64,000 nt of DNA from Candidatus Dojkabacteria bacterium UBA2022 (GCA_002335495.1 DDBW01000006.1:72-64071); one strand, 5' to 3'. Positions 5,368 through 63,729 are shown, numbered from the stretch's first letter. Notes: generated by a model from the sequence alone, not told the origin. Numbers and translations: made by a program.

Positions 5368-5443
5368 GGATGTGTAGCTCAACTGGTAGAGCAAGCGGCT
5401 CTTAACCGTTAGGTTCAGGGTTCGAGTCCCTGCACATCCACCA
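5368..5443 (+). tRNA. tRNA-Lys (anticodon CTT), CCA encoded
   Basis: Cloverleaf folded by hand: acceptor GGATGTG/CACATCC, anticodon stem AGCGG/CCGTT, loop CTCTTAA, T-arm CAGGG-TTCGAGT-CCCTG, 3' ACCA. Confidence 0.9.
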
Positions 5444-40087: not shown

Positions 40088-40156
40088 TAAATAATAACTA
40101 AGCTTGTTAATAAGAGGATATTTCAGTTCGGGGAAATTATGAAAATGTATGGCGGA
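40088..40156. repeat. tRNA-Asp 3'-flank repeat (att-like), partner of 30735..30815
   Basis: See 30735..30815; overlaps the last ~7 nt of tRNA-Asp (tggcgga). Confidence 0.5.
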
Positions 40157-40226
40157 GTGGACGGGACTCGAACCCGCAACCTTCGCAGTGACAGTGCGAT
40201 GCTCTAACCAATTGAGCTACCACTCC
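40150..40226 (-). tRNA. tRNA-Asp (anticodon GTC), CCA encoded
   Basis: Reverse complement folds as GGAGTGG acceptor, anticodon stem TCGCA/TGCGA, loop CTGTCAC, T-arm GCGGG-TTCGAGT-CCCGT, CCA. Confidence 0.9.
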
Positions 40227-50467: not shown

Positions 50468-50553
50468 GCCGAGGTGGTGAAATTGGCAGACACGCTACCT
50501 TGAGGTGGTAGTGGGAGTTAAATCCCTTGCAGGTTCAAGTCCTGTCCTCGGCA
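50468..50553 (+). tRNA. tRNA-Leu (anticodon GAG), long variable arm, CCA not encoded
   Basis: GCCGAGG acceptor; anticodon loop TTGAGGT; T-arm AGGTTCAAGTCCT; close to canonical bacterial tRNA-Leu(GAG). Confidence 0.8.
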
Positions 50554-50580
50554 TATGTGTGGTATAATCTCACACTATTG

Positions 50581-50657
50581 GGGCGATTAGCTCAGCTGGT
50601 TAGAGCACCTCGTTTACACCGAGGGGGTCATAGGTTCGAATCCTATATCGCCCACCA
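50581..50657 (+). tRNA. tRNA-Val (anticodon TAC), CCA encoded
   Basis: GGGCGAT acceptor; anticodon stem CCTCG/CGAGG, loop TTTACAC; T-arm ATAGG-TTCGAAT-CCTAT. Confidence 0.9.
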
Positions 50658-52439
50658 TTTATCCTCGTCTACCCCGAAGCTCCGTTCAAGATCGTTCATA
50701 ATCTCGCTTGGTAATCTAAGTCTTATGTTCAATTTGTATGGAATCATTTGTCCTTTTTTCTGCCTTCCTGCAATGATATCCTTTTTTGTCACAGGTCTTG
50801 AAAAGACAATTATGTCATGAATAATCAATTGCAAGATATCTCTTAATTGTTCTCTGTCTTTGTACAAGTTTTCTAGCTCCTCTAGATACTTCTTTTTGAA
50901 GAGCTCAAATACTTTGTTATATCCTTCATCTATCGTCAGATCTGCCAATCTAGATTCAAGTTCATCATAATCAGCTTTATTCTTTTTATATAGTTTATCT
51001 TCTTCATCCATTTGCTCTGTAAATTGGTTGTCAGATAGATGCCCATTTTTATGTTGAAACTTTATGCTATCTATAGTTCTGCTGTGACTATTTATTAGCC
51101 TTTTAAGAACCGATAATCTCTTATTTAACATCTCTTTTTCAAGTCTGCGAGATTCTAACTTTAGTTGATGGTTATATACATCTCTCGGATTTCGTATAAG
51201 CTTTTTTAGGAAATCAACAACATACTCCTCAATGCCGTAAGCTGGAAGAGGAAGGCAACTACAGTGGATAGAACTATGCTTGGGACTTTTCCTTTTACAT
51301 TTGTAATAGTAAGAATACTTTCCAGTCCCTTTATTAACTAGCTTTCTTTCTCCCACCCAGTTATGTGGTTGCATGTCAATTTCAGGATTGTAACAATTTG
51401 CACATCTTAATAATCCCCTTAGTAAATAAATACTATCACTATGCATTCCTTGATCTCTACGAGTTATTTCGTCTTTGAGTAACTTCTCCTGTACAGCTAC
51501 AAAAGTCGGTTTATCAATAATTGCATCATGTATGTGTTCGGATAGTACCCTTTCTTTATCCTTACCCTTCTTCTTTGAGTACCAATACTCACCCATATAT
51601 ATCTTGTTTCTCAGAATATGCTTAATGACATTTGAGTCCCAAAAGTATGGTTTATTAACTTTTCTTCTTTTCCCTCTATATTTCTCATGCATCTCAGCAG
51701 AAACACTTGGAGACGGAACTTTATGTTGCATTAACCAATCAGCGATAGCCTGTCTACTTGAGTTTTCCCATAAATACATGTTAAAGATTTGTCTAATATA
51801 GTTAGCTTCCTCTTCTAGTATTACTAACTTTTTATCTAGGTCCTTCTTGTATCCATAAGGAGCATGTGACCCCATAAATACACCTTCTTTAGATGCAGAG
51901 GCTTTACCTGTATGAGTTCTTTCCATGATATTTTCAAGCTCAAGTTCTGCGATGACTCCTATAATCCCTAAAACTGCCTTTCCGAAAGGGTTAGTGGTAT
52001 CAATACTCTCATTTGCAGAAATAAACTCAATGTCTTTCTCGTCAAAATAATCAATTATTTCAAGAAGAACTTTTAACCTACGAGCAAATCTGTCAATTTT
52101 GTAGACAGCAACAACATCAAACGGTTTTTGTAAACCTTCTGTATTATCTATATCCGAAATCATTCTCCTGAAAGCAACTCTCTCATCCATAGGTAGAGTT
52201 CCACTCGCACCCTCATCTATATAGATATATTGGTCGTCTATTACATTTCCCTTCTCATCCATCCCTCCGGCATAGACATATCTATCCTTTCCTTCAATAG
52301 TTTTCCCTTTAGCCTTTATAAGATTTAGAAGTGTCTCTTTTTGCATCGGAATGCCGAACTTTTCTACTTGTTCATCGGTTGAAACCCTTATATACAAGGC
52401 AACTCTTTTAACATTTTCTTGGTCAAATCTGTTTTGCAT
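50643..52439 (-). CDS. Large serine recombinase (resolvase-recombinase-zinc-ribbon-coiled-coil integrase)
   Basis: ALYIRVSTDEQ catalytic Ser region; recombinase domain; Cys-cluster zinc ribbon (CANCYN...CKRK...HCSC); last 5 codons (KWWAI*) are antisense to the tRNA-Val acceptor/CCA. Confidence 0.85.
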   Translation of the reverse strand: MQNRFDQENVKRVALYIRVSTDEQVEKFGIPMQKETLLNLIKAKGKTIEGKDRYVYAGGMDEKGNVIDDQYIYIDEGASGTLPMDERVAFRRMISDIDNTEGLQKPFDVVAVYKIDRFARRLKVLLEIIDYFDEKDIEFISANESIDTTNPFGKAVLGIIGVIAELELENIMERTHTGKASASKEGVFMGSHAPYGYKKDLDKKLVILEEEANYIRQIFNMYLWENSSRQAIADWLMQHKVPSPSVSAEMHEKYRGKRRKVNKPYFWDSNVIKHILRNKIYMGEYWYSKKKGKDKERVLSEHIHDAIIDKPTFVAVQEKLLKDEITRRDQGMHSDSIYLLRGLLRCANCYNPEIDMQPHNWVGERKLVNKGTGKYSYYYKCKRKSPKHSSIHCSCLPLPAYGIEEYVVDFLKKLIRNPRDVYNHQLKLESRRLEKEMLNKRLSVLKRLINSHSRTIDSIKFQHKNGHLSDNQFTEQMDEEDKLYKKNKADYDELESRLADLTIDEGYNKVFELFKKKYLEELENLYKDREQLRDILQLIIHDIIVFSRPVTKKDIIAGRQKKGQMIPYKLNIRLRLPSEIMNDLERSFGVDEDKWWAI

Positions 52440-52475
52440 CTTTAATACAATGACTTCTCCCCGAAGTATATATAA

Positions 52476-52868
52476 TTATTTCTTTCCTCTGGTTTTCATC
52501 AATAGGGTATGAAGTAGTCTTTTATCATTTTCTTCAATTGAAGTTACAACTACCTCCATCTCCAATACTTTATTGTTACTTTCTACTTTGAGCTTTTTAT
52601 TTACCTTTTTGTAAAGTAACTTCCCATTGGAATCAGTAGCCTTTGCATTATCAACATAGTCAGGAAGTACTCCAAACATACTTTCCTTGCCCTTCCAATC
52701 CGATGATTCTATCCAATGTGTAAGATCCATTTCTTTTTGGGAAGTAATTTCAATATAGATATACTCTCCATTATTGTCTTTAATTGCCTTCATTGGATAT
52801 TGGGAGTTTTTTGGGGGAGAATCGTGTACTTTTGAGAAAAGTTGTTTTATTTCGCTTCTTGTTTTCAT
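52476..52868 (-). CDS. Hypothetical protein
   Basis: ORF only. Confidence 0.3.
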   Translation of the reverse strand: MKTRSEIKQLFSKVHDSPPKNSQYPMKAIKDNNGEYIYIEITSQKEMDLTHWIESSDWKGKESMFGVLPDYVDNAKATDSNGKLLYKKVNKKLKVESNNKVLEMEVVVTSIEENDKRLLHTLLMKTRGKK

Positions 52869-52990
52869 GAATATATATTACTTGACGGAGTGTCAACATG
52901 CAATGCACCACGAAGTCCATTATCTGCTGGAGGTTGGTGATACAACATAATTATATATTCAGTTTCCGGGTAACTATGGTATATTTACAT

Positions 52991-53593
52991 ATGGCTACTG
53001 CCCGTCAAATAAAAGCTATAGAAAAATTATCAGATTTTATCAGAAACACAAAAGGTACAAAGATTCCTTTCAAAACACTTGGAGAAATACTCCGAGAAGC
53101 AGGTTACTCTGATAGTGTTTCTAAATCCCCTCAAAGGGTAACTGAGAGAAAGGGATGGAATGAGTTAATGAGTGAATACTTTCCGGAGAAAGATTTAATT
53201 GACTTGCACAAACGAATATTAAATAAGTCTGAGTCGTTCAGGTATAAAGATAAAGTCGTTAAAACAAATCAGCCACATTCGGATGCAAAATATGCCTTAG
53301 ATATGTACTACAAATTGAAAGGAGCATACAAGTACGATCCTGAAAAAGTTGCTTATCAAAAACCACATCCTGGCTTTGAGTTTTTCCAAACGGATATAGC
53401 ATGTGAGTTCTGGTTGCATAACAGATATTTCAGAAACTTTCTAAAAGCTAAAGAATTGAATGTTCCAATGACACATCCTGATGCAGGAAGAGACCTGGAT
53501 CATATAGTGATTAGAGGATATGCAGAGGATTACTCTTACGAAGATGTTGTTCAAATGTTCATTGAGAAATATGAAAGAGGTGAAAGGGATTGA
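52991..53593 (+). CDS. Hypothetical protein with N-terminal HTH-like segment (terminase-small-subunit-like?)
   Basis: Internal ATG (MATARQIKAIEKL...GEILREAGYSDSVSKSPQRV) of ORF 52898..53593; weak resemblance only. Confidence 0.3.
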   Translation: MATARQIKAIEKLSDFIRNTKGTKIPFKTLGEILREAGYSDSVSKSPQRVTERKGWNELMSEYFPEKDLIDLHKRILNKSESFRYKDKVVKTNQPHSDAKYALDMYYKLKGAYKYDPEKVAYQKPHPGFEFFQTDIACEFWLHNRYFRNFLKAKELNVPMTHPDAGRDLDHIVIRGYAEDYSYEDVVQMFIEKYERGERD

Positions 53594-53598
53594 AAATC

Positions 53599-54243
53599 TT
53601 AGGGTTTTAGAAATAGATCAGCAAGAACATATGTTCTACTAAATGACTTTTGCCCTTCTTTCGTTTTTAAGACAATCTCAACATCAATCTCAGGAGTTTC
53701 TTCGCTATAAACTTTAGTGTCATATATTTTTCTATCCGATTCCTCCCTAAGTGCCAAAGTTGAAAATACTCTAATCCATTTTTCAAAATGTTCAGAAGTA
53801 TTAGCATTAACTTTAACCGGTAGGTTCAGTCTATTACTCGCACTGCCTTTTATTTTCCCGTACCAATCCAACTTCCTACCATTGATAATAATTCTTTCAA
53901 TGTATATATCGTAATCACTGTAATTATGAATATAGTAGGGAATCTTATACTCAGTTTCGTTTGTTCGTGAGTATGATACAAAACTTGTTCCTTTCCTTAT
54001 CTGTTCGTATTCAACTTCAATATCAAATATTTTATATCGCAAATAAACTTTGTATGTGGAGTAAAATAGAAAAATAAAAGCAGAAAACAGGAGGATTAGG
54101 TTACTGTATTTTTGGACTAACAATGAGTACACAGAAGCACTCATCCCACTAAAAAGTATTACATACTGAATCCAATCAACCCCGTCCTTCCAAAATATCA
54201 AAACTTCGGAGAGATATTTCAAAAACTTTTGATAATTCTTCAT
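53599..54243 (-). CDS. Hypothetical 2-TM membrane protein
   Basis: ORF; two N-terminal hydrophobic helices. Confidence 0.4.
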   Translation of the reverse strand: MKNYQKFLKYLSEVLIFWKDGVDWIQYVILFSGMSASVYSLLVQKYSNLILLFSAFIFLFYSTYKVYLRYKIFDIEVEYEQIRKGTSFVSYSRTNETEYKIPYYIHNYSDYDIYIERIIINGRKLDWYGKIKGSASNRLNLPVKVNANTSEHFEKWIRVFSTLALREESDRKIYDTKVYSEETPEIDVEIVLKTKEGQKSFSRTYVLADLFLKP

Positions 54244-54279
54244 CTGTTGGATTGTACTCTAAAAGGTCTTTTAGAACAA

Positions 54280-54495
54280 TTATAATCCTTCGGTCAGTTT
54301 ACTGACTGTAATTCCAATAGCCTTTGCAATACTGTAGACAACTGATAGGGAGGGACTAACCGTTCCTCTTTCAATTCTACCTATATAATTACTACTCACA
54401 TTTGCCTTAAATGCTAACTTCTCTTGTGTTAATCCTGCCTTAGTTCTTGCTTTTCTAAGTAAAGCACCAAACTTTTTCTCTATTTGATTTGCCAT
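54280..54495 (-). CDS. XRE-family HTH transcriptional regulator (71 aa; candidate island repressor)
   Basis: LRKARTKAGLTQEKLAFKANVSSNYIGRIERG helix-turn-helix. Confidence 0.75.
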   Translation of the reverse strand: MANQIEKKFGALLRKARTKAGLTQEKLAFKANVSSNYIGRIERGTVSPSLSVVYSIAKAIGITVSKLTEGL

Positions 54496-54584
54496 ATCTA
54501 AAGATTATGCAATCACAGCCCTATAGACAACGAGCTATCTACACGGTACAATCTGCATGGCTAAGTTAAATAAATGCAGTTAAG

Positions 54585-54827
54585 ATGGATATATTTCTAA
54601 CAATTCTCAAGTGGGTTATTGGATTGATAATTCCGTTAATAGTTAGATATTTAGTCATTAAAAAATCTGTTACAAAATGGGTTGCAATTGGGATACTTGT
54701 TGTAAATTGGTTCATTTGTGCCTTCCTTTACTTTTCACTCCTTGAATCCATGGATGTTATGGCTGATGTTGGAGTACCAATTTTTGTGATTATTTCATTT
54801 GCAGGGTATTCAATTCTTACCAATTAA
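54585..54827 (+). CDS. Small 2-TM membrane protein
   Basis: ORF, divergent from the XRE gene. Confidence 0.35.
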   Translation: MDIFLTILKWVIGLIIPLIVRYLVIKKSVTKWVAIGILVVNWFICAFLYFSLLESMDVMADVGVPIFVIISFAGYSILTN

Positions 54828-54830
54828 AGT

Positions 54831-55394
54831 ATGAAATGGTTTTGGGTTATATTAACAACTATCTTGCTATCAATCCTTTCCGGAGCATTCTACTGGTTTG
54901 CATATAGACCATATGAGATCAAAAGGGATTGTTCGGTCGTAAGCGAAATTAGTAAAGAAATAAGGGAAATTACAACTCAAGATGTACACGAAAGTATCAG
55001 ATTGAATAATCTTTGTAATCAATTCACTGAAAGATATGCAAAAACTTACTACAATTGTTTACAGGAAAAGAAGAAAAACTATATTAAGACAAGTACAGAA
55101 GATTCAGAATTATGGAAATCGTGCGATGAAATAGAAAAAGTATGCAGGAAGGAATTAAATAAAGAAACAAGCAACAAATACGACTTCCTATTCAGTAGAT
55201 TGACTCAACCTACATGTGAACGAGAAGATCAGACAAAAAAGAATCGTTTCTACGATTACTACTACGAAAACGGGATTTACTGTAACGAAAGCTTCCCTGT
55301 ACTTAAAGAAAGAGATGGCGAACAAGAAAAGACCCTAAAAAGAGATGCAACTAACGAAGAGTATCAAAAGTGCCTTAGAAACAATGGACTATAG
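54831..55394 (+). CDS. Hypothetical protein with N-terminal TM
   Basis: ORF; Cys- and charge-rich. Confidence 0.35.
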   Translation: MKWFWVILTTILLSILSGAFYWFAYRPYEIKRDCSVVSEISKEIREITTQDVHESIRLNNLCNQFTERYAKTYYNCLQEKKKNYIKTSTEDSELWKSCDEIEKVCRKELNKETSNKYDFLFSRLTQPTCEREDQTKKNRFYDYYYENGIYCNESFPVLKERDGEQEKTLKRDATNEEYQKCLRNNGL

Positions 55395-55439
55395 GGATAT
55401 TTAGGTATAAAATCGTTAATAAACTTTTATCAAATTACT

Positions 55440-56423
55440 GTGGCAGTAACAAAGTGTCCAAAATGCGATCATTCACTTGAAGTAGATACACCCGGTAAGT
55501 ATAAATGCCCTGAATGTAAAAGCCTTTTTACATACGAAGGGAAAGACATTCCTAGAAAAGCAGAGAAAATCTCTGACAAGAAATCCTCAAATGTAGGATG
55601 TGGGACAATAATTATTATCTTTCTCGCATTAGGTGTTATTGGAGCATTTATTTCTGCTGTACAAGAAGCCCTTACTCCTGCAAGTTTTACCCTGAATGGA
55701 AGGGATGAGAGAGTCGCATCTACACCTACAACTACATTAACTTTTGAATGTGTAAAGATTGATTCTGTTAAAATAAACGATACTCTTTTGAGAGAAAGTG
55801 AGAAAGAGGGTTTATGCGATACAGGTTATGAAATATCCTTGAAGGACGGTAAAAACGAATATAAGGTACAGGCACTTGGAGATGATAAAACCTTTCAGGA
55901 AACCGTAACAATTTCATTTGATAAAAAGGCTTACGATAAAGCACAGGCAGAAATCGCTAAAAAGAAGAAAGAAGCAGAGGCGAAAAAGAAAGCGGAAGAG
56001 GAAGCTAAACTAAATGCACTTGCAAAAGATTATTGCTCACAAAGAAAAAGCGATATTAGAAAGTATCCAACACTAAAAATTGATGGCTCAAGCTATATTA
56101 TGGAGTTTAATACCGCAAAACAAGGGAGATACTTAACCCAGACAGACTGCAAAAATAGAATAACTCAATTGCTCAAGTTAGCTGAAAAGGATGGGACTGT
56201 TATTTCAGATAGTAGAATGAAAGACATAATCCAGAAGAAACATTGGATTGGAATGAGGGACTATCAATTTGTTATCTCGGTAGGTAATCCTGACGACATT
56301 AACAGTTCCAACTATGGTTCGTACAAGAGTGACCAGTATGTATACCACAAAGATTCATATGGAATAAGTGCATATTATGTCTATTTTGATGATGGAAAAC
56401 TTTCAAGTACTCAAGACTTTTGA
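55440..56423 (+). CDS. Membrane protein: N-terminal zinc ribbon, TM helix, extracytoplasmic coiled-coil and unknown C-terminal domain
   Basis: CPKCDHSLEVDTPGKYKCPECKSLF; TM GCGTIIIIFLALGVIGAFISAV; KKKEAEAKKKAEEEAK coiled-coil. Confidence 0.5.
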   Translation: MAVTKCPKCDHSLEVDTPGKYKCPECKSLFTYEGKDIPRKAEKISDKKSSNVGCGTIIIIFLALGVIGAFISAVQEALTPASFTLNGRDERVASTPTTTLTFECVKIDSVKINDTLLRESEKEGLCDTGYEISLKDGKNEYKVQALGDDKTFQETVTISFDKKAYDKAQAEIAKKKKEAEAKKKAEEEAKLNALAKDYCSQRKSDIRKYPTLKIDGSSYIMEFNTAKQGRYLTQTDCKNRITQLLKLAEKDGTVISDSRMKDIIQKKHWIGMRDYQFVISVGNPDDINSSNYGSYKSDQYVYHKDSYGISAYYVYFDDGKLSSTQDF

Positions 56424-57841
56424 TGAATATGAAAAGGATCTCTTGTCCACAATGTAATCAGACTCTTAATATAGAAAAAGAAGGTGTATATAAATGTCCC
56501 GACTGCCAAAGTACCTTTGAATATACAAAAAAGAAAGTAAATCTCTTGGAAAAGGGAAACGGTAAAACATTATCTACTCAGGTAGTTACTTACTCATTAT
56601 GGGTACTTTCCTTATTAGGAATACTCTTTTCCTTTGTGGTTTTAGCTACAAGTTTATTTGGAGGGTTTTTAGTACTACTTTCAGCTATTCTTATCATGCC
56701 TCCTATAAGGAATCTATATTCACAGAGATTGAAGGTCAGATACCTACATGCACTAATCATTTCGTTTATCTTTTTTATAGTTGGTTTGGGATACATGATG
56801 AATGTATATGTAAATAGTGATGAATATAAGCAGTCAGTTGCACAACAAGAGTCGGACAAGAAACTAGAATCAGAAAGACAAAAGAGATTAGAAGCAGAGA
56901 GAATAGCAAATGAAGAAAAGAAAGAGCGAGAAAAGGCAGAAGAACTTGCAAAAAAAGAAAAAGAGGAACGAGAGAAGTTGGAGAGGCTTATTGCAGAAGC
57001 ACAAGCAATAAATGAAGACTATCCAGAAGAAAAGGATGGAGTAAAGACAGATGTAAAGGGTACACAAGATGCAAATATAAGGTTAATTAATGAAACTGAA
57101 ACAATTTCAGATAAAGAAACAAACGAAGAGAAAACACTAACAAAGCTACTTGATGTTATTGAAGTGGTAGATGGTGACACAATAAAAGTCTCCGAACTTG
57201 GTACATTAAGACTTATTGGCATTGATACTCCAGAAACAGTAGATCCTAGAAAACCAGTACAATGCTTTGGGAAAGAAGCATCAGATAAAGCAAAATCTTT
57301 GTTGAGTGGTAAAAAGGTTAGATTGGAGTTTGATACCTCACAAGGAAGACTTGATAAATACGGAAGGACACTTGCTTATGTATACCGTGAAGATGGATTA
57401 TTTTTCAATAAAGAGATGATTAAGCAGGGCTTTGCACATGAATACACATATTCAACCCCATACAAGTACCAAAGTGAGTTTAAGAAGGCTCAGAGCGAAG
57501 CACAGGAAGCTAAGAGTGGGCTGTGGGGTAGTGCATGTAAGTGTGAGAAGGGAGAGGAAGTATCCAAGAGTTGTACCGCATGTAACCAATTGACAGTAAA
57601 GAAATACAATTGGGATTGCAGTACATATACAGAGAAAGTTTCAAGTAGCTCATGTTCTTACAAATGTTCAACTACAACTCCGGTAGCACCTAAACCATCT
57701 TCTCCATATACATGTAATTGTAGTAAAACTTGCTCACAAATAACTAGCTGTGCCGAAGCTCAATATCAATTAAAGACCTGTGGTTGTTCTGCTAGAGATG
57801 GAGATGATGATGGAATAGCTTGTGACTCTATGTGTCAGTAA
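56420..57841 (+). CDS. Membrane-anchored nuclease: zinc ribbon, 2 TM, coiled-coil, staphylococcal-nuclease (SNase/thermonuclease) domain, C-terminal Excalibur Ca-binding domain
   Basis: CPQCNQ...CPDCQSTF; LIGIDTPETVDPRKPVQCFGKEASDKAK...LDKYGRTLAYVY SNase motifs; C-terminal CAEAQYQLKTCGCSARDGDDDGIACDSMCQ Excalibur-like; start overlaps the previous gene by 4 nt. Confidence 0.7.
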   Translation: MMNMKRISCPQCNQTLNIEKEGVYKCPDCQSTFEYTKKKVNLLEKGNGKTLSTQVVTYSLWVLSLLGILFSFVVLATSLFGGFLVLLSAILIMPPIRNLYSQRLKVRYLHALIISFIFFIVGLGYMMNVYVNSDEYKQSVAQQESDKKLESERQKRLEAERIANEEKKEREKAEELAKKEKEEREKLERLIAEAQAINEDYPEEKDGVKTDVKGTQDANIRLINETETISDKETNEEKTLTKLLDVIEVVDGDTIKVSELGTLRLIGIDTPETVDPRKPVQCFGKEASDKAKSLLSGKKVRLEFDTSQGRLDKYGRTLAYVYREDGLFFNKEMIKQGFAHEYTYSTPYKYQSEFKKAQSEAQEAKSGLWGSACKCEKGEEVSKSCTACNQLTVKKYNWDCSTYTEKVSSSSCSYKCSTTTPVAPKPSSPYTCNCSKTCSQITSCAEAQYQLKTCGCSARDGDDDGIACDSMCQ

Positions 57842-57901
57842 GTAGTTGATACATTGTTATGAGGTAATTGCTTTAAAGCTCAAAATAAATATAATGAATG
57901 T

Positions 57902-59044
57902 ATGGAAACCCCTTTGGTGAACCCAATAGTCTTAAAATGGGCGAGAGAGAAGAACGGCTTCACAATACAGCAAGCCTCAAAGAAATGTGGTGTTACTGAA
58001 AGTACCTATCTTTCTTGGGAAGAAGGGAAGGTTGAGATTCCAATAAGGAAACTGCCTGTTTTTGCGAAAGTCTTCAAATATACATCTGCAATTTTTTTGT
58101 TGGATGTTATACCAGAAGAGAAGTATCCGATTGAGTTTAGAAACTTCTTTATTACATACGGAAATATAGGTAGAGAACTCAATTTAGCCATTAGATCTGC
58201 ACAATATGTACAATCAATCTTGAAAGAGTTGTCTGAATACTCTGACAACAAGTTCGTGAAAAGAATATCCGAGTTGGGAGAAAAGTCTAAGAAATTTGAA
58301 GAAATTTCCACGATCCTTGAAGAATATCTAAATCTTAATTACTCTCTTCTTCACGGGCAAAGGGATCAATTCAAGGTTTTCAAGAGGTGGAAGGAATATG
58401 TTGAATCTCAGGGAATCTCCGTTATGGAGAGAGGATTTCCACAGAATGAGGCGAGGGGCTTCTTGTTATACGATGAAATAGCCCCGGTTATTGTATTGAA
58501 TACAAAAGATTCTATTCATTCAAAAATATTCTCGTTAATACATGAGCTTGCACATGTCGTCTATAGACAATCAAGCATTGATAATGAAATAACCCTGACA
58601 GAAAACAAAAAAGGTGAAATTGAAACATTGTGTAATCAAATTGCAAGTGAAATTCTTGTTCCCCCAACTATACTTGAAGAAAGAATTATCTCTGTTCAGT
58701 CCTCTCCTTTAGAGGTAGTTATTTCGGACTTGAGCAAATATTTTTGTGTTAGTAGGGAAGTTATTGCTTATAAATTATTAGATTTGAAATACTATACAAG
58801 GTCAGTAATTGAACAATATATAGAAGAAGTAAGGCAGGAATCATTGCTATTCAAATCTAAGAAGAATAATGGAGGAGACTACTACAAAAATGTGATAGTT
58901 AACAATAGCCCATTGTATTTATTTACTGTTTTTGATGGGCTAAACAATAATAAAATCACTTTTGGTGAAGTGGTGTCAATTCTTAAAGTGAAATCAGAAA
59001 ATATAACCAAATTGGAAAGAGTTCTCCTAGACTACTATGAATAA
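57902..59044 (+). CDS. XRE-HTH fused to ImmA/IrrE-family (COG2856) zinc metallopeptidase domain
   Basis: N-terminal HTH (WAREKNGFTIQQASKKCGVTESTYLSWEEG); HEXXH motif SLIHELAHVVY. Confidence 0.7.
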   Translation: METPLVNPIVLKWAREKNGFTIQQASKKCGVTESTYLSWEEGKVEIPIRKLPVFAKVFKYTSAIFLLDVIPEEKYPIEFRNFFITYGNIGRELNLAIRSAQYVQSILKELSEYSDNKFVKRISELGEKSKKFEEISTILEEYLNLNYSLLHGQRDQFKVFKRWKEYVESQGISVMERGFPQNEARGFLLYDEIAPVIVLNTKDSIHSKIFSLIHELAHVVYRQSSIDNEITLTENKKGEIETLCNQIASEILVPPTILEERIISVQSSPLEVVISDLSKYFCVSREVIAYKLLDLKYYTRSVIEQYIEEVRQESLLFKSKKNNGGDYYKNVIVNNSPLYLFTVFDGLNNNKITFGEVVSILKVKSENITKLERVLLDYYE

Positions 59045-59501
59045 ATATTTACTTGATACAAATGCCTATATAGAAATTGATAGAGGTGCATCGGTTGATA
59101 TGTTTCCTACTACACTGTGGGCTAGTATTGGAGATTCAATAAAGAAGGGAGAGATTTTATTACTTAAGGCCGTATATAACGAAGTTACAAAGTCTAGTGA
59201 TGGATTAAGTAGCTGGATGAAAGGTTATTCAGATTTCATATACGATCACCTCGCGGATATTGATTTAATAGCAAGAGCAAAGATAATTGTAAATAAATAT
59301 CCAACAATAGTTGATCCCAAAAATATCAATGATCAAGCAGATCCATATATAATTGCTTGTGCTTATGAAAAGTCACTATGTATTGTAACGAATGAGGGTA
59401 GAAAGCATAGTAAGATAAATATCCCGTATATCTGTGATGAGTACAATATTAATTGTATTCAGTCATATGAGTTTATGAGAAACACTGGATGGAAGTTCTA
59501 G
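59037..59501 (+). CDS. DUF4411/PIN-like domain protein (predicted nuclease partner of the ImmA/IrrE-HTH gene)
   Basis: YLLDTNAYIEI N-terminal Asp motif; further acidic positions (QADPYIIACA, VTNEG); 8-nt overlap with the upstream gene. Confidence 0.5.
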   Translation: MNKYLLDTNAYIEIDRGASVDMFPTTLWASIGDSIKKGEILLLKAVYNEVTKSSDGLSSWMKGYSDFIYDHLADIDLIARAKIIVNKYPTIVDPKNINDQADPYIIACAYEKSLCIVTNEGRKHSKINIPYICDEYNINCIQSYEFMRNTGWKF

Positions 59502-59706
59502 CCAACCATAATTGTTACTTATAGTAAGTAAAAGAACCGCATTACTGGGCTTTTTTTGGGGCAAGTAAACAAATTGTTTAACATCTCACGAGTCATATAT
59601 ATTATTTTTATCCTGCTTTGGGGTTCTTGCTTTTTGGGGAAATTGATATTCGCCCTTATTTCTCATAGTCTTAAGCCATCTTTTCCCTTCGCGACAATAC
59701 AATTTA

Positions 59707-59735
59707 TTGTAAATCATAACCATATGCCCTATAAT
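59707..59735 (+). promoter_or_regulatory. Sigma70-like promoter (TTGTAA-17-TATAAT) for the graspetide precursor
   Basis: Perfect -10, good -35, 17-nt spacer, followed ~30 nt later by the AAAGGAGGTGAGG SD. Confidence 0.5.
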
Positions 59736-59767
59736 ATTCTATCTCAACCCGAAAGGAGGTGAGGTTA

Positions 59768-59863
59768 ATGTTTGCAGTGAACTTTTTCACTCGGATTGAG
59801 TCCGCTGATGCCAAAGGAACCGGCACAGTAGACAAATCCACAGGTCAGACTGACTTTGACTAG
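59768..59863 (+). CDS. Graspetide (omega-ester RiPP, microviridin-like) precursor peptide, 31 aa
   Basis: ATG 7 nt after a strong SD; MFAVNFFTRIESADAKGTGTVDKSTGQTDFD; leader FAVNFFTRI resembles the PFFARFL leader motif; Thr/Ser + Asp/Lys-rich C-terminal core; below the 60-aa ORF-track cutoff. Confidence 0.55.
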   Translation: MFAVNFFTRIESADAKGTGTVDKSTGQTDFD

Positions 59864-59885
59864 TCGTCAACCTGCAAGCAAGAAA

Positions 59886-59941
59886 GGAGATGTAGAGAAT
59901 CAATACCGTCATCAATATGACAACCCTTTCTCTACATCTCC
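59886..59941 (+). terminator. Perfect 14-bp stem hairpin between precursor and ligase (attenuator or partial terminator)
   Basis: GGAGATGTAGAGAA-N28-TTCTCTACATCTCC followed by CCAGCTCTTTC. Confidence 0.4.
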
Positions 59942-59972
59942 CCAGCTCTTTCAAATCGTTTAAGGAGACACC

Positions 59973-60908
59973 ATGCACACAGTACTAGTAATAACATCGT
60001 TGCCTGACCCCCATGTGGAAATGGTCAAGGAGCATCTTTCTGCGGATGTAGAAATGGTGATTTTTGATCCAAAGGCTCTCGGTATTTCTGGAAGTTTTAC
60101 TATTTCAGAATCAGGAGAGCTGCTTTCACTTGGTGGACAGAGTCCTGTCTCAGTCTGGTACAGAAAGCCGAAGTATTTATCAGAGTCAGAGATAGAAAAA
60201 CTTAGAGTCCCGAAAGATTATCTTCCTGCAATTGCTTCATTGCATGAAGAAGGGTTCTCACTAATCCAAGAAGCATACCCAGATAGTCTGTGGGTATCTA
60301 AACCAGCTGCAATCAAGAGAGCTTCCAACAAGCTTCTGCAATTCTTGACGGCAAAGAAGATTGGTTTCGCAATTCCGGAAACAATCTTTTCAACAGATCC
60401 AAAAGCAATTGATGAGTTACGAAGTAAGGTGGGAGACATTGTGATGAAACCATTGGGGAGACCATTTGCAAATGTAAATGGAGTACCGTCGTGGTTTTTC
60501 GCAACAGTCATCCCTGCAAGCCAGACCATGAATTATGAGGGTCTTGGATTAACACCCATGATCTTTCAGCAATTAATTCATAAGGCTTATGATTTGAGGG
60601 TAACAGTTATCGGTAACAAAGTCTTTGGATGTAAGATAGTTTCAGAGAAAATTGATTGGCGAGTAGCTCAATCAGAACCTGAGACATTGTATACTCCACT
60701 TGACCTTGATAAGGAAACTACCGAAAAATGTTTACTCATGAATCAACAGCTTGGTCTGAACTTTGGAGCCTACGACTTCGCATACTCCAATGAAGGAGAA
60801 CTTGTTTTTCTTGAGATAAATCCAAACGGACAGTGGGGATTTGTTGAGAATAAAACAGGATTACCTTTATCAAAGGCAATGGCGGAGGTGCTTATTGGTT
60901 CTTCTTAG
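59973..60908 (+). CDS. ATP-grasp RiPP maturase (graspetide/microviridin-type ligase, MdnC/MvdD-like)
   Basis: Pre-ATP-grasp N-domain (MHTVLVITSLPD), WYRKP, and FLEINPNGQWGFVENKTGLPLSKAMAEVL C-terminal motif characteristic of this ligase family; GC higher than surroundings. Confidence 0.75.
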   Translation: MHTVLVITSLPDPHVEMVKEHLSADVEMVIFDPKALGISGSFTISESGELLSLGGQSPVSVWYRKPKYLSESEIEKLRVPKDYLPAIASLHEEGFSLIQEAYPDSLWVSKPAAIKRASNKLLQFLTAKKIGFAIPETIFSTDPKAIDELRSKVGDIVMKPLGRPFANVNGVPSWFFATVIPASQTMNYEGLGLTPMIFQQLIHKAYDLRVTVIGNKVFGCKIVSEKIDWRVAQSEPETLYTPLDLDKETTEKCLLMNQQLGLNFGAYDFAYSNEGELVFLEINPNGQWGFVENKTGLPLSKAMAEVLIGSS

Positions 60909-60944
60909 ATGTGCTGGAGGGTAGTTTTTTGGTAGAATACACCA

Positions 60945-61505
60945 ATGAAACAAAGCTACCCTCCAGTTACAACTAAAAGAGTGGATGTAAAGAAAATTGC
61001 TAAAAGATTAATCATGATGGCAAAGCGAGATCAAGAAGTAAGAGATAAATACTTTGCTCTGAATGATAAAAAGTATCTGGACGAAATGTGGAAGATTGAT
61101 GAAAAGAATCAAAGGGAGTTTAAGGAAATCTTTAGGCAAGTAGGTTTAATCACCTCAGAGTATGGATCAGAAGCACAAATGTCTGCTTTCTTGATCGTTC
61201 AACACATGTCTAGAGAAGAAGTGAAGTTTATGAAAAACTACCTTTCTCTAATGAAAAAGAATATTACAGGTTATCCACTCAATATTTATGCAATGTTAGT
61301 TGACAGAGTTAGAAATTGGGAAGGTAAAGACCAGTTATACGGGACTCAGTTTATGCCTGTAGAAGGGAAAGAAAACACCTACAAACTTAAAAAGCTATAC
61401 AAGTCTCATTTGGTAGAAAAGAGAAGAATGGAGTTAGGTTTAGAGCCTCTAGGAGAGTACATTAAGAAACTTCAGGAAGAGAGGGGAGTTACTTTAATAC
61501 TTTAG
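60945..61505 (+). CDS. Hypothetical protein
   Basis: ORF; start codon lies in the loop of an 11-bp stem (60914..60966). Confidence 0.35.
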   Translation: MKQSYPPVTTKRVDVKKIAKRLIMMAKRDQEVRDKYFALNDKKYLDEMWKIDEKNQREFKEIFRQVGLITSEYGSEAQMSAFLIVQHMSREEVKFMKNYLSLMKKNITGYPLNIYAMLVDRVRNWEGKDQLYGTQFMPVEGKENTYKLKKLYKSHLVEKRRMELGLEPLGEYIKKLQEERGVTLIL

Positions 61506-61617
61506 TACCTTCTAATTGCTTTATCTAGATCATGTATAATCAATACCAACCTTCTTTCTTGGGCTTCTGGGTGGTACAATATCTCTGACCATTTTCCCAT
61601 TATGATATGATATTAAT

Positions 61618-62043
61618 ATGACGCAAGAAATTGAAGAAGAAATAAAGGCACATATTGCATTAGGAATCATTTTGAATGAGAAAGGTGAAGTCCTTATTAT
61701 TCAGAGAATCAAGGAAGAAAAGGGGGCAGGTGAAGTTACCCTCAATTGGGCGTTTCCAGGTGGGAAAATTGAAGAAGGTGAAGATAGCGTAAGTACTTCT
61801 ATAAGGGAAGTATTGGAAGAGACAGGGTATTCAGTAAGCATTAGTAATGAAATTTCAGGAAGAAAACATCCTCAATTTCCAGTATATGTTCATTACATGG
61901 CAGGTGTTTTACTCTCATCTACCCAGCTTGATTACGACCAGTCTGAAATAAAAGAGGTTAAGTGGGTTAAACCTGAACAATTGAAAGATTACTTCTCAAC
62001 CGACTTTGACGAGAAGGTACAAGACAGCCTAGGGATTCACTAA
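61618..62043 (+). CDS. NUDIX hydrolase
   Basis: GGKIEEGEDSVSTSIREVLEETGY Nudix box. Confidence 0.7.
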   Translation: MTQEIEEEIKAHIALGIILNEKGEVLIIQRIKEEKGAGEVTLNWAFPGGKIEEGEDSVSTSIREVLEETGYSVSISNEISGRKHPQFPVYVHYMAGVLLSSTQLDYDQSEIKEVKWVKPEQLKDYFSTDFDEKVQDSLGIH

Positions 62044-62087
62044 TGATTTCAAATTGATTGCTAATTAGAAAGATATACTATCAATGA

Positions 62088-62153
62088 GTAGTTAGTTTTA
62101 AGTTCCATGCTTTGAAGTGTCGCCCACCATTTTTCGTTCTCTACCCATAAATG
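62088..62153. repeat. att-like direct repeat A (degenerate tRNA-Val 3' end, gttttaagttccaTgct...gtcgcccaccattttt)
   Basis: 12-13 nt identical to the tRNA-Val terminus plus flank similarity; partner copy at 63148..63210. Confidence 0.45.
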
Positions 62154-62169
62154 ATTCTGTATTGTAATA

Positions 62170-63147
62170 TTGGATGAAATGTCAGAATCTTTAATTGAAA
62201 ACCGGCCACAAATACCTCAATCACTTGGTGAAACAGATTTGCGAAATTATTTATCTCAAAGGGATATTGTCCTTAGCGATGAGGAGTTGGAACACTGTAG
62301 ACTGATTGAAGTACCAGATGGGGTACCTATACTAATCATTGATCGTGAACACGATGAGTGGGAAGGCGGTGATGACCCGCTCCTGGCAAAATGTTTAGGC
62401 AGTCCTTCCTGCAAAGAATTTATCCCAGAATATTTTCTTCCCGACCTCAAAAGGGATGAGGATAAATACCCAGATTTTGTTAAAAAGCTTATGGGGTTCA
62501 GCGCTGATGATACAAACGCTGCATATGAGAAGAGGGGGGGATTCTTCTATTATCATGCACAAAAGTTTATGGGAGTGGAAGGAAAGAAAGTTTCTGTTGT
62601 TGATATTGCAAACACTGGCTTGTATGAAGCATATTTCAGCCTCTGGCCAGCAGTGTATTCGTTAACAGGCAGTGCATTACCACTTCCCCCAACACTTAAA
62701 ATCATCACAGTATTAGCGCCGTGGGTAATGCGGGCAATTAACTACATTGGTGATGGTCAAAAAGTAGGGGATCAAAAGACAAATGAAAACGGACGCGGTA
62801 TATATGACAAACGCCATATAAATAGCTATGAAAAAGCCATTTACGACATGGAAGATGCAAGACGAGTATATGCAGCAAGGGCGCTAGAGAAATTAAGTAA
62901 TGACAGGAAAAAACAATATCCAAATAATGATCAACTATTAGTGGCTGTATATCCTAAGGCGCATGCAATGAGAATAGCCAACTATTTAACCAATTTAAAT
63001 CCATCTACGGCAATTTCCACACAAGTCAAGAATCTCTTATACCGATACCCAGGCTTGGAATTTTCAACAAGAACATATGAGAAAAAGAAAAGCTATGGTA
63101 GCAAACCAGAGGGTTATTGGGATTTAGTTGAAAACGTTAAATTCTAA
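62170..63147 (+). CDS. Hypothetical protein (325 aa) in a cassette flanked by the A/B repeats
   Basis: ORF only. Confidence 0.4.
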   Translation: MDEMSESLIENRPQIPQSLGETDLRNYLSQRDIVLSDEELEHCRLIEVPDGVPILIIDREHDEWEGGDDPLLAKCLGSPSCKEFIPEYFLPDLKRDEDKYPDFVKKLMGFSADDTNAAYEKRGGFFYYHAQKFMGVEGKKVSVVDIANTGLYEAYFSLWPAVYSLTGSALPLPPTLKIITVLAPWVMRAINYIGDGQKVGDQKTNENGRGIYDKRHINSYEKAIYDMEDARRVYAARALEKLSNDRKKQYPNNDQLLVAVYPKAHAMRIANYLTNLNPSTAISTQVKNLLYRYPGLEFSTRTYEKKKSYGSKPEGYWDLVENVKF

Positions 63148-63210
63148 GAATCAAAATAACACCAGTTTTAAGTTCCAGGCTACTTTGTACTGCCCACCAT
63201 TTTTTAGAAA
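63148..63210. repeat. att-like direct repeat B (gttttaagttccaGgct...ctgcccaccatttttt)
   Basis: About 45-nt similarity to repeat A. Confidence 0.4.
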
Positions 63211-63222
63211 TTACCTTAACAA

Positions 63223-63729
63223 ATGGGAACTGGATTATCCTTAATTACTGAATATGCACTCGGAGGACTTATTTTCTGGTCTACATTAGTCGTAGGATTC
63301 TTCCTTTCGAGTATCTTTCCTGCTGAACTACTTACTAACTTATCACCTATCTTAACCGGGTTAGTCCTAATTGGATCTCCTTTCGTGTATTTAACCGGAC
63401 TTTTAATTGATATATTGGGGAATGAAGTTCTTCAATTGATTAAAATCGAAAGAAATCTGGGCTCAGATAACTACAATAAAATAGTTGTAAATGGCTCAAA
63501 TTCAGCTAAAGACAGAGTAAGGGGATTTGAGTCAACAAAAAGGTTTCTGCGGATTTCGTTTATATCCTTTTTGATTAATGTAGTTATATTTTTGATCACC
63601 GGATGTATTACAAATCAGCCGTTACTCTTCTGCTTTACAATAATCGCTTTATTTATTGGAATTCTTTCTTTCACAGGCTATTTAATGATAAAGCAAAAGT
63701 ATGAAGCAGTTTTGGAGCAATTGAGTTAA
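63223..63729 (+). CDS. Hypothetical polytopic membrane protein
   Basis: ORF with 4-5 hydrophobic helices. Confidence 0.4.
   Translation: MGTGLSLITEYALGGLIFWSTLVVGFFLSSIFPAELLTNLSPILTGLVLIGSPFVYLTGLLIDILGNEVLQLIKIERNLGSDNYNKIVVNGSNSAKDRVRGFESTKRFLRISFISFLINVVIFLITGCITNQPLLFCFTIIALFIGILSFTGYLMIKQKYEAVLEQLS

What the first reader, a model, noticed from the sequence alone, without database searches (positions are those of the whole stretch)
50468..62153. tRNA-Leu/tRNA-Val pair with a large serine recombinase overlapping the tRNA-Val 3' end, heading an ~11.5 kb island
Seen: the recombinase stop codon lies 15 nt inside tRNA-Val, so its last codons KWWAI are antisense to ATCGCCCACCA. Downstream at ~62127 there is a 27-nt stretch 22/27 identical to the tRNA 3' end plus flank, with cgcccaccattt exact. 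Cargo between them: hypotheticals, an XRE repressor divergent from small membrane genes, zinc-ribbon nuclease genes, HTH-ImmA/DUF4411, a graspetide cluster and a Nudix gene. Established: integrative elements target tRNA 3' ends and leave direct repeats, though large serine recombinases less commonly use tRNA sites. Inference: prophage remnant or integrative island; it has an integrase and a repressor but I see no capsid or terminase genes.
Basis: partly seen in the sequence, partly recalled or inferred. Interest (0 to 1): 0.55.

Follow-up and report, generated by a model that had tools for sequence, protein, structure and literature searches.

The report
Serine-recombinase island inserted at tRNA-Val
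An 11.5 kb mobile island in an uncultured Dojkabacteria (CPR) genome sits at the end of a tRNA-Val gene, put there by a large serine recombinase from a CPR-wide clade whose sampled members all sit at tRNA gene ends, a target usually credited to tyrosine integrases.

Summary
The 598-aa large serine recombinase (LSR, 50643-52439, minus strand) ends 15 nt inside tRNA-Val(UAC). The 13-mer TCGCCCACCATTT recurs exactly 11,472 nt downstream, and a third related site lies 1,070 nt further on.

The region is a composite. Element E1 (about 50658-62129) is followed by E2 (62130-63199), a 1.07 kb cassette with no recombinase. Conserved chromosome resumes at about 63200. Another strain carries different DNA up to exactly that junction.

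The right-end sites share a composite motif, TAAGTTnCAnGC-N12-CCCACCA, with 0.00 expected by chance. The same motif closes related elements in four other CPR genomes.

All 10 relatives (37-53% identity) whose gene end I could read abut an antisense tRNA (Val, Glu, Lys, Gly, Cys). Among more distant LSRs the counts were 1 of about 60 and 0 of 34.

No phage, conjugation or replication genes were found. Cargo is a toxin-antitoxin-like pair, a membrane nuclease, a graspetide cluster and a Nudix gene.

Verdict: a real integrative island, not a prophage, and a new variant of a known kind. The crossover position and the recognition model are inferred. No empty site in the same species and no circular form were found.

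The parts
50468..50553 (+). tRNA-Leu(GAG). This is a chromosomal neighbour and not part of the element.
   Evidence: ARAGORN. The order enolase, tRNA-Leu, tRNA-Val is conserved in L044, L084 and L015.
50581..50657 (+). tRNA-Val(UAC). Its T-arm and 3' acceptor strand form the left (B) half-site of the attachment site. The gene remains intact.
   Evidence: ARAGORN. The 3' 25-mer is shared by at least 119 genome stretches, mostly CPR.
50648..50660 (+). attL identity block TCGCCCACCATTT. The inferred crossover dinucleotide is AC at 50654-50655 (discriminator A73 and C74).
   Evidence: Exact repeat of 62120-62132. The centre is inferred from the symmetric RGTTC motifs at positions 22-26 of both attP arms.
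50655..50682 (+). P' half-site of attP, lying inside the last codons of the LSR gene (SFGVDEDKWW). It carries GAAGC at positions 22-26.
   Evidence: GAAC[CT]-like pentamer at the same distance from the tRNA discriminator in 11 elements integrated at five named tRNA types, and in two different reading frames.
50643..52439 (-). Large serine recombinase, 598 aa, with the catalytic Ser20 in YIRVSTDEQ. The stop codon lies in the tRNA.
   Evidence: Pfam PF00239, PF07508 and PF13408. Invariant R18, S20, D116, R117 and R120 across 30 relatives. 509 relatives at E <= 1e-10.
52476..52868 (-). 130-aa ORF directly upstream of the LSR on the same strand. Function unknown; a candidate accessory or directionality factor (speculative).
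   Evidence: 32% identical to the ORF in the same position in L210. No family hit.
52898..53593 (+). ORF divergent from the LSR module, 200-231 aa, function unknown.
   Evidence: 52% identical over 116 aa to a gene of the L209 element.
53599..54243 (-). 214-aa ORF with no family hit.
   Evidence: ORF list; no Pfam, PADLOC or PHROGs family.
54280..54495 (-). XRE-type HTH repressor, 71 aa, divergent from the two small genes at 54585-55394.
   Evidence: PF01381, E = 2.6e-16.
54585..55394 (+). Two small ORFs with hydrophobic stretches (80 aa and 187 aa); no family hit.
55440..57841 (+). Two genes with an N-terminal zinc ribbon followed by a hydrophobic stretch. The second (56420-57841) carries SNase and Excalibur domains and is probably a membrane-anchored or secreted nuclease (the location is my reading of the sequence).
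   Evidence: PF00565, E = 3.7e-28; NucI-like, 3.8e-40; PADLOC SNc+LTD, 7e-39. An SNase plus zinc-ribbon cargo also occurs in the L215 element.
57902..59501 (+). HTH-M78 (ImmA/IrrE-like) gene at 57902-59044 and an overlapping DUF4411 gene at 59037-59501. This looks like a toxin-antitoxin or defence-like pair.
   Evidence: PF06114 and PF01381; PF14367, E = 9e-29; NCBIfam spr1629 antitoxin family; PADLOC RmrA models.
59768..61505 (+). Graspetide-type module: a 31-aa precursor (59768-59863), an ATP-grasp maturase (59973-60908) and a DUF6624 gene (60945-61505).
   Evidence: TIGR04187, E = 1e-54, below the curated cutoff. The precursor and both enzymes are conserved in L084 (77.6% nucleotide identity over 1751 nt).
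61618..62043 (+). NUDIX hydrolase, the last cargo gene of E1.
   Evidence: PF00293, E = 1.4e-19.
62099..62132 (+). attR of E1: the P half-site (TAAGTTCCATGC at positions 28-17, then a 12-nt spacer) plus the core ending CCCACCATTT.
   Evidence: The composite pattern has 2 hits in the window against 0.00 expected. The same architecture occurs in L210, L084, L101 (twice), L024 and L006/L007.
62127..62150 (+). P'-like remnant. By hand count it is 18/26 identical to E1's P' arm, and on the minus strand it reads VENEKWW against VDEDKWW. This is probably the last trace of a second LSR gene end.
   Evidence: (family D8) plus direct reading.
62130..63199 (+). E2, a 1.07 kb recombinase-less cassette with one ORF (62179-63147, 322 aa, function unknown), closed by its own P half-site and core (63169-63199).
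   Evidence: (family D3). The ORF has no family hit.
63200..63729 (+). Chromosomal right flank (B'), including the 168-aa gene at 63223-63729.
   Evidence: L006 and L007, from other samples, share this flank from GCCCACCATTTTTT rightwards but carry different DNA to its left.

Best explanation
E1 (about 50658-62129, 11,472 bp) is an integrative, non-phage, non-conjugative island of a CPR-specific element family in a Candidatus Dojkabacteria genome.

How it most likely works. Its large serine recombinase recombined a roughly 56-bp attP with an attB. The attB consists of the 3' part of the tRNA-Val(UAC) gene (T-arm plus acceptor strand, the B arm) and about 25 bp downstream (the B' arm). The attP straddles the end of the recombinase gene. 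The P' arm is the last 26 or so nucleotides of the ORF, and the P arm lies at the opposite end of the element.

Both attP arms carry an RGTTC motif 22-26 bp from a centre that falls on A73-C74 of the tRNA. The tRNA's own T-loop GGTTC lies 4 bp closer to that centre. This is the geometry expected for the zinc-ribbon-domain motif of serine integrases in attB versus attP.

Because the P arm copies TCGCCCA|CCATTT, the tRNA stays intact after integration, and the recombinase ORF then terminates in tRNA-derived sequence.

A second, related insertion left E2, which has lost its recombinase. The order of the two insertion events cannot be told.

Shown: domain architecture, the tRNA overlap, the repeats, motif conservation across genomes, the clade-wide tRNA association and the variable/constant junction. 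Inferred: the crossover dinucleotide, the T-loop recognition, current activity and the route of cell-to-cell transfer.
For: - LSR domains and invariant catalytic residues.
- Exact 13-bp direct repeat 11,472 nt apart, plus a third site; 6 hits against 0.74 expected.
- Composite P-arm and core pattern: 2 hits against 0.00 expected in the window. Among 296 fetched loci it occurs only in the same genome, L006/L007, L084, L210/L211, L101 and L024. In every one whose flanks can be read it closes a block that starts at a tRNA-Val.
- The L210 element has an LSR only 41% identical and sits at tRNA-Val(GAC). It carries the same P arm 10.5 kb from its attL, and the motif is inverted in its P' arm.
- L006/L007 share the right flank but carry different DNA left of the junction.
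- All 10 clade members I could inspect have an antisense tRNA at the stop: 7 with a called tRNA overlapping it and 3 cut by a contig end. Among non-clade LSRs the counts are 1 of about 60 and 0 of 34.
- 33 of 120 clade proteins have antisense-tRNA peptide tails, against 0-1 of 120 in eight control windows.
- The P' pentamer keeps a fixed distance in two reading frames.
- No phage or conjugation genes.
Against: - No empty attB from the same species was found. The metagenome scan returned nothing.
- No circular attP junction was found.
- All six contigs carrying this exact LSR show the same arrangement, so current mobility is unproven.
- The outer P-arm motif TAAGTTCCATGC is only weakly mirrored in E1's own P' arm (5/12 by hand count); only the RGTTC part is shared.
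- The motif shift is 4 bp, not the 5 bp described for the Listeria phage (LI) integrase.
- attR could not be located for the Lys, Gly and Val(GAC)-L297 relatives.
- GC content does not set the island apart from its flanks.
Confidence: 0.85

Rival explanations
1. Decayed prophage: the region is the remnant of a temperate CPR phage that used a serine integrase and has lost its structural genes.
For: An integrase plus an XRE repressor divergent from small genes looks like a lysogeny switch. The two zinc-ribbon genes hit PHROGs families of unknown function, and the nuclease hits phage nuclease families.
Against: No capsid, terminase, portal, tail or lysis genes among 17 ORFs. Seven relatives in other genomes are also small or carry restriction-modification, nuclease, reverse-transcriptase or Schlafen-like cargo and no virion genes.
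Confidence: 0.07
2. Fixed, no longer mobile island: the element integrated as described but is now immobile. The LSR would be retained without function or used for something else, and the conserved att motifs would reflect recent ancestry only.
For: Identical arrangement in all contigs carrying this LSR. No attP or empty-site sequence was recovered. The neighbouring E2 has lost its LSR.
Against: The LSR ORF is intact with all catalytic residues. In nine right-end sites the outer 12-nt motif and the core are nearly invariant while the 12-nt spacer between them varies freely. That is the pattern of a selected binding site, not neutral decay. A different occupant exists at the same junction in other samples.
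Confidence: 0.3
3. Coincidence: the recombinase merely happens to lie next to the tRNA, the repeats are chance, and the 'cargo' is ordinary chromosome.
For: The graspetide genes lie next to tRNA-Val without any integrase in L084. GC content is unremarkable.
Against: Repeat statistics. Clade-wide tRNA adjacency against controls. L084's module ends in the same att motif. L044 has the syntenic enolase, tRNA-Leu, tRNA-Val arrangement followed by unrelated genes, with no LSR and no cargo homologue.
Confidence: 0.03

Closest known systems
Serine integrases of temperate phages (A118/LI, Bxb1, phiC31, TP901-1)
   Same: Resolvase, recombinase and zinc-ribbon domain architecture. Short attP with two pseudo-symmetric half-sites. 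A distal motif that lies closer to the centre in attB than in attP (model of Rutherford et al. 2013, PMC3783163). The nearest solved chains are the TP901-1 integrase N-terminal domain and entry 9iu2, labelled 'Integrase'.
   Different: Only weak sequence similarity (PDB hits E about 1e-14, mostly to the catalytic domain). The target is a tRNA gene 3' end rather than a protein-coding gene or intergenic site. attP overlaps the integrase stop codon. The carrier is a small island and not a phage.
tRNA-targeting genomic islands of the Islander type (tyrosine integrases)
   Same: An intact tRNA at one end, a displaced copy of its 3' end at the other, the integrase gene next to the tRNA, and tandem accretion at one tRNA.
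   Different: The enzyme is a serine, not a tyrosine, recombinase. [quoted passage not shown] The identity block here is short, 9-13 bp.
SCC elements of staphylococci (CcrAB/CcrC large serine recombinases at the 3' end of rlmH/orfX); comparison from my own knowledge, not tested here
   Same: An LSR inserts at the 3' end of a conserved housekeeping gene without inactivating it. Composite arrays form that include recombinase-less pseudo-elements bounded by the same short repeats. Cargo is adaptive genes with no virion or conjugation genes.
   Different: The target is a tRNA rather than rlmH. The LSR clade, host phylum and cargo are unrelated.
phiRSM filamentous phage integrase
   Same: A serine-family recombinase whose attP equals 13 nt at the 3' end of a tRNA-Ser gene (Table 1 of PMC4471427).
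   Different: It is a small resolvase/invertase-type enzyme on a filamentous phage, not a 600-aa LSR on a cargo island.
Tycheposons of Prochlorococcus
   Same: Cargo-carrying elements integrated at tRNA genes. A minority (27 of 937) carry a large serine recombinase (bioRxiv 10.1101/2020.12.28.424599).
   Different: Tycheposons mostly use tyrosine recombinases, and many carry replication genes. None were found here.

Membership tests
Large serine recombinase (serine integrase) | N-terminal resolvase catalytic domain with a serine nucleophile and conserved Arg/Asp residues | tested here: met
   PF00239, E = 1.5e-31. S20, R18, D116, R117 and R120 are invariant across 30 relatives.
Large serine recombinase (serine integrase) | Recombinase domain followed by a zinc-ribbon domain | tested here: met
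   PF07508, E = 2e-19; PF13408, E = 7.9e-8, above its cutoff.
Large serine recombinase (serine integrase) | Short (about 40-56 bp) att sites with a central crossover dinucleotide and paired half-sites | tested here: inconclusive
   Conserved motifs at positions 22-26 of both arms and 17-28 of the P arm define a centre at A73-C74. The crossover itself is inferred, not observed.
Large serine recombinase (serine integrase) | Unidirectional integration, with excision needing a directionality factor | not testable with these tools
   Candidates are the 130-aa ORF here (52476-52868) and the HTH_17/MerR genes next to relatives' LSRs.
Classical tRNA-integrating genomic island (Islander definition) | A tRNA gene and a displaced tRNA 3' fragment bracket the island, which contains an integrase gene | tested here: met
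Classical tRNA-integrating genomic island (Islander definition) | Integrase of the tyrosine recombinase family | tested here: not met
   The only recombinase is of the serine family. No PF00589-type hit among the island ORFs.
Prophage | Virion structural, packaging or lysis genes | tested here: not met
   Pfam and PHROGs scans of the ORFs. The clade was not found in the IMG/VR scan.
Integrative conjugative or mobilizable element | Relaxase, coupling protein or type IV secretion genes | tested here: not met
   No such Pfam family in any island ORF. oriT was not tested.
Integron | IntI tyrosine recombinase with attI and attC-bounded cassettes | tested here: not met
   No tyrosine recombinase. 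The cassette-like units end in an LSR half-site and not in attC.
Tycheposon | tRNA-integrated element that often carries replication genes (primase, helicase or polymerase) | tested here: not met
   No replication genes found.

The most novel reading that the evidence does not exclude
The recombinase-less units are E2 in the window, the 1.95 kb graspetide unit in L084, two units in L101 and one in L024. They are 0.4-2 kb long, and each ends in a nearly invariant P half-site and core despite unrelated cargo and a freely varying spacer. On the novel reading they are not decay products. They would be cassettes moved in trans by this LSR clade, giving a serine-recombinase cassette array at tRNA-Val. 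The clade's use of the universal T-loop GGTTCG as its distal attB motif would let it hop between tRNA genes.
Probability: 0.2. Interest if true: 0.85.

Novelty: new variant of a known kind. Interest (0 to 1): 0.6.

Why it matters
tRNA genes are the textbook targets of tyrosine integrases. The Islander paper (2014) states that no serine integrase was known to specify them. In the papers I searched, the precedents were one small serine recombinase and a tycheposon minority that carries LSRs.

Here a clade of hundreds of 600-aa serine integrases appears to do exactly that. All named members come from CPR bacteria, whose mobile elements are poorly known. The sampled members sit at five named tRNA types, and the attP is built into the end of the integrase gene.

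If the inferred recognition of T-loop plus acceptor end is right, it explains how the clade switches tRNA targets. It would also offer simple, cofactor-independent integrases whose natural landing sites are highly conserved sequences.

It also gives a practical annotation rule. Many LSR proteins in databases carry spurious C-terminal tails translated from antisense tRNA.

Finally, the islands appear to be a main vehicle for defence and nuclease genes in these very small genomes.

Tried and rejected
- **Empty site or other occupants in JGI metagenomes.** The pattern GCCCACCATTTTTTAGAAATTACC gave 0 hits, so it found neither the empty site nor the occupied one.
- **Circular attP junction in IMG/VR.** 0 hits.
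- **The LSR alone against viral contigs.** Nothing found. With the clade alignment, only LSRs of 33% identity or less were found.
- **The 119 genome stretches sharing the tRNA-Val 3' end.** None encodes an LSR relative. The same tRNA sequence is therefore usually unoccupied by this family.
- **attR of the Lys, Gly and Val(GAC)-L297 relatives and L298.** Neither repeat search nor motif search located them. Those subfamilies probably share less than 9 bp of identity, or their right end lies off the contig.
- **An internal att site at about 59.5 kb that would split E1 before the graspetide module.** The only candidate (GGAAGTTCTAGCCAACCA, 59490-59508) is the coding end of the full-length DUF4411 gene and has the wrong spacing. 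Rejected.
- **Contexts of E2's ORF homologues (P0122, P0123).** They lie in unrelated contexts without att motifs, so they say nothing about cassette mobility.
- **A full inverted repeat between E1's P and P' arms.** Only RGTTC is shared (5/12 for the long motif). The clear inverted repeat is seen only in L210.


Full report
**1. Checking the observation**

ARAGORN places tRNA-Leu(GAG) at 50468-50553 and tRNA-Val(UAC) at 50581-50657, both on the plus strand. The minus-strand ORF 50643-52439 encodes 598 aa with Resolvase, Recombinase and Zn_ribbon_recom domains, all above their Pfam cutoffs. It is therefore a large serine recombinase (LSR).

Its TAG stop occupies 50643-50645, 15 nt inside the tRNA. 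The last codons K-W-W-A-I are antisense to the tRNA's ...ATCGCCCACCA end.

The downstream repeat is real. 50648-50674 and 62120-62146 are 23/27 identical, with TCGCCCACCATTT exact, 11,472 nt apart. The 13-mer at up to 2 mismatches gives 6 hits against 0.74 expected, and none of 100 shuffles reached 6.

62094-62134 and 63164-63204 are 78% identical, 1,070 nt apart.

**2. Anatomy of the three sites**

- Site A (at the tRNA) and site B (62120) share their right sides.
- Site B and site C (63190) share their left sides, AGTTTTAAGTTCCAkGCT...GCCCACCATTTTT.

This is what tandem site-specific insertions produce: tRNA|P'1-E1-P1|P'2-E2-P2|B'.

By hand count, site B's right arm is 18/26 identical to E1's P' arm. 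On the minus strand it reads V-E-N-E-K-W-W against V-D-E-D-K-W-W. It therefore looks like the last trace of a second recombinase gene end (direct reading).

E2 (62130-63199) now holds one ORF of unknown function and no recombinase.

The composite pattern TAAGTTnCAnGC-N12-CCCACCA occurs twice in the window, at B and C, against 0.00 expected.

**3. Organism and comparative evidence**

*Organism.* The exact LSR is on a Candidatus Dojkabacteria (WS6, CPR) assembly, GCA_035437765.1, and in JGI, ENA and Logan assemblies with the same arrangement.

*The right junction.* Contigs from two other samples (L006, L007) carry the same right-flank gene (window 63223-63729) and the same sequence from GCCCACCATTTTTT rightwards. 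To the left they carry different DNA, which nevertheless ends in TAAGTTTCAGGC-N12-CCCACCA. The position at about 63199 is therefore a true junction between variable and constant DNA.

*Other species with the same synteny.* In four other genomes the enolase gene lies next to the same tRNA-Val, and in three of them tRNA-Leu is visibly between the two.

| Locus | What follows tRNA-Val |
|---|---|
| L044 | An unrelated gene; no LSR and no cargo homologue |
| L084 | The graspetide precursor, ATP-grasp and DUF6624 genes (77.6% nucleotide identity to 59722-61468), no LSR, closed by the same P-arm and core motif, then an ORF starting MDLVKYIIVGG... |
| L101 | Two short recombinase-less units, closed by the motif at +484 and +1902 |
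| L024 (contig too short to check enolase) | One short recombinase-less unit, closed by the motif at +381 |

*A full-length relative.* L210/L211 carry a 10.5 kb element at tRNA-Val(GAC) whose LSR is only 41% identical. Its right end has TTTTAAGTTCCATGCTAGAAAGTGTAGCCCACCA, and the same motif is inverted in its P' arm.

*Specificity.* Among 296 fetched loci the composite pattern occurs nowhere else.

**4. A clade-wide property**

The LSR has 509 relatives at E <= 1e-10. The best 120 are 41-53% identical, and those that carry a phylum name come from CPR groups: Levybacteria, Amesbacteria, WWE3 and Parcubacteria.

All ten clade members outside this genome whose gene end I could inspect have an antisense tRNA there. 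Seven have a called tRNA whose 3' end overlaps the stop:
- tRNA-Cys: L129
- tRNA-Glu(CTC): L130 and L131
- tRNA-Val(TAC): L133 and L298
- tRNA-Val(GAC): L210 and L297
- tRNA-Lys(CTT): L212
- tRNA-Gly(TCC): L215

L132, L209 and L216 are cut by a contig end, but the visible sequence is still the 3' part of a tRNA.

Controls show the arrangement is specific to the clade:
- Among about 60 metagenomic LSRs of 24-38% identity with a readable stop, only L156 (tRNA-Pro) shows it.
- Among 34 IMG/VR LSRs with downstream sequence, none has a tRNA within 150 nt of the stop.
- At the protein level, 33 of 120 clade members have C-terminal tails typical of antisense T-arms (RDSNP, GFEPW, GIRTHD). Eight internal control windows gave 0-1 of 120.

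**5. Inferred attP and attB geometry**

I count positions from the tRNA discriminator as 0.
- The P' arm carries GAAC[CT] (GAAGC in the window) at +22 to +26 in all eleven elements.
- The motif is read in different frames. In the window it is .GC TTC, giving S-F. In L133 it is AGT TC., giving S-S. Its conservation is therefore at the DNA level.
- The P arm carries AGTTC at positions 22-26 on the other side. This places the centre between A73 and C74 (window 50654-50655).
- The inverted TAAGTT.CA.GC pair in L210 gives the same centre independently.
- The tRNA's own T-loop GGTTC lies at positions 18-22, which is 4 bp closer to the centre.

Rutherford et al. describe a distal zinc-ribbon-domain motif that is shifted 5 bp towards the centre in attB relative to attP (PMC3783163). 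The geometry here is similar, though not identical.

In nine right-end sites the outer 12 nt and the core are nearly invariant while the 12-nt spacer varies freely. This is the pattern of a bipartite binding site.

All of this section is inference from sequence. No crossover was observed.

One consequence follows. In an excised circle the ORF would read ...KWWATLQSMELKTNYSLIVYLSN* (616 aa) instead of ...KWWAI* (direct reading).

**6. What kind of element it is**

No ORF matches virion, packaging, lysis, relaxase, type IV secretion or replication families.

Cargo of E1:
- an XRE repressor
- two small ORFs with hydrophobic stretches
- two zinc-ribbon proteins, one with SNase and Excalibur domains
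- an HTH-M78 plus DUF4411 pair that matches spr1629-type antitoxins and PADLOC RmrA models
- a graspetide-type module whose 31-aa precursor is conserved in L084
- a NUDIX hydrolase

Relatives are 8-11 kb, or larger in the L212 case. Their cargo includes:
- a type I restriction-modification system (L212)
- an Mrr-like nuclease (L210)
- an SNase (L215)
- a Tsp45I-type restriction-modification pair with a Schlafen/AlbA-type gene (L297)
- a reverse transcriptase (L298)

These are small cargo or defence islands. How they move between cells is unknown.

**7. Comparison with what is known**

The enzyme is a bona fide LSR. Its nearest solved relatives are distant: the TP901-1 integrase N-terminal domain and entry 9iu2, both at E about 1e-14.

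The island has the tRNA-plus-fragment signature of classical tRNA islands, but it fails their defining tyrosine integrase. [quoted passage not shown] A 2026 provirus survey reports that tyrosine integrases preferentially target RNA loci. The Durrant et al. LSR survey does not mention tRNA at all.

Precedents exist:
- The small serine recombinase of phiRSM uses a tRNA-Ser end.
- A few tycheposons carry LSRs.

From my own knowledge, SCC elements are the best functional analogue. There an LSR inserts at the 3' end of a housekeeping gene, and composite arrays form that include recombinase-less units.

I found no description of this CPR clade in the seven searches I ran. That is not proof that none exists.

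**8. Limits**

- No empty site in the same species was found.
- No circular form was found.
- All carriers of this exact LSR look alike, so present-day activity is open.
- attR could not be found for other subfamilies.
- The order of the E1 and E2 insertions cannot be resolved.

**9. Verdict**

The added value is fourfold:
- the island is composite;
- the prophage option is rejected;
- this LSR belongs to a large CPR clade whose sampled members all sit at tRNA gene ends, with attP built into the integrase stop region;
- recombinase-less cassettes bounded by the same half-site recur downstream of tRNA-Val in several genomes, which remains unexplained.

Novelty: a new variant of a known kind. 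Interest: 0.6.

Noticed in passing
window 59768-59863, and L084 about 4670-4765: A 31-aa graspetide-type precursor (MFAVNFFTRIESADAKGTGTVDKSTGQTDFD) lies upstream of the ATP-grasp gene. L084 has a conserved counterpart (MFAVKYFTQIESTDANATSTVDTSSGQTDFD). The Thr/Ser- and Asp-rich core is well conserved.
   Followed up: partly
window 49529-50377: The SPFH/Band-7 gene lies between enolase and tRNA-Leu here. In L044 and L084 the enolase gene ends within about 75-210 nt of tRNA-Leu with no SPFH gene, so this gene is a lineage-specific insertion or loss.
   Followed up: no
L023, L050, L051, L061, L065, L067, L071, L073, L086, L095 (Saccharibacteria and other genomes): Ten loci with the same tRNA-Val 3' end carry an ACCCCTGT-type motif (for example ACCCCTGTTAT) about 10-65 nt downstream of the tRNA. 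None has an LSR relative. This may be the end of a different integrative element family using the same tRNA.
   Followed up: no
L156 5614-5690 (contig Ga0209373_10000011): An LSR from outside the clade (32% identity) also has its stop 21 nt inside an antisense tRNA-Pro(TGG). This suggests a second, independent LSR lineage that targets a tRNA.
   Followed up: no
proteins P0003-P0119: At least 33 of 120 database LSR sequences carry C-terminal extensions of up to about 90 aa that are simply antisense tRNA, and beyond, read until the next stop. This is a gene-calling artefact that inflates protein lengths from about 590 aa to as much as 687 aa.
   Followed up: partly
L213 9684-9878, L214 9078-9272, L297 9673-9876: A 64-67 aa HTH_17/MerR-type (excisionase-like) gene sits immediately upstream of the LSR in several relatives. 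The window has an unrelated 130-aa ORF at that position. Either could be a directionality factor.
   Followed up: no
L299-L301 (homologue of the E2 ORF, 56% identity): All three contigs end 39 nt after the gene. The gene is flanked by an inverted pair of a repeat: ...CATTGCGAGAATTTTT...GGCAATCTCGTTGGAAT upstream and ATTCCAACGAGATTGC...CTCGCAATG downstream. This suggests the ORF rides on a different small repeat-bounded unit in that genome.
   Followed up: no
window 5368-5443 and 40150-40226: The window's two other tRNA genes, Lys(CTT) and Asp(GTC), were not examined for similar recombinases or att arrays.
   Followed up: no
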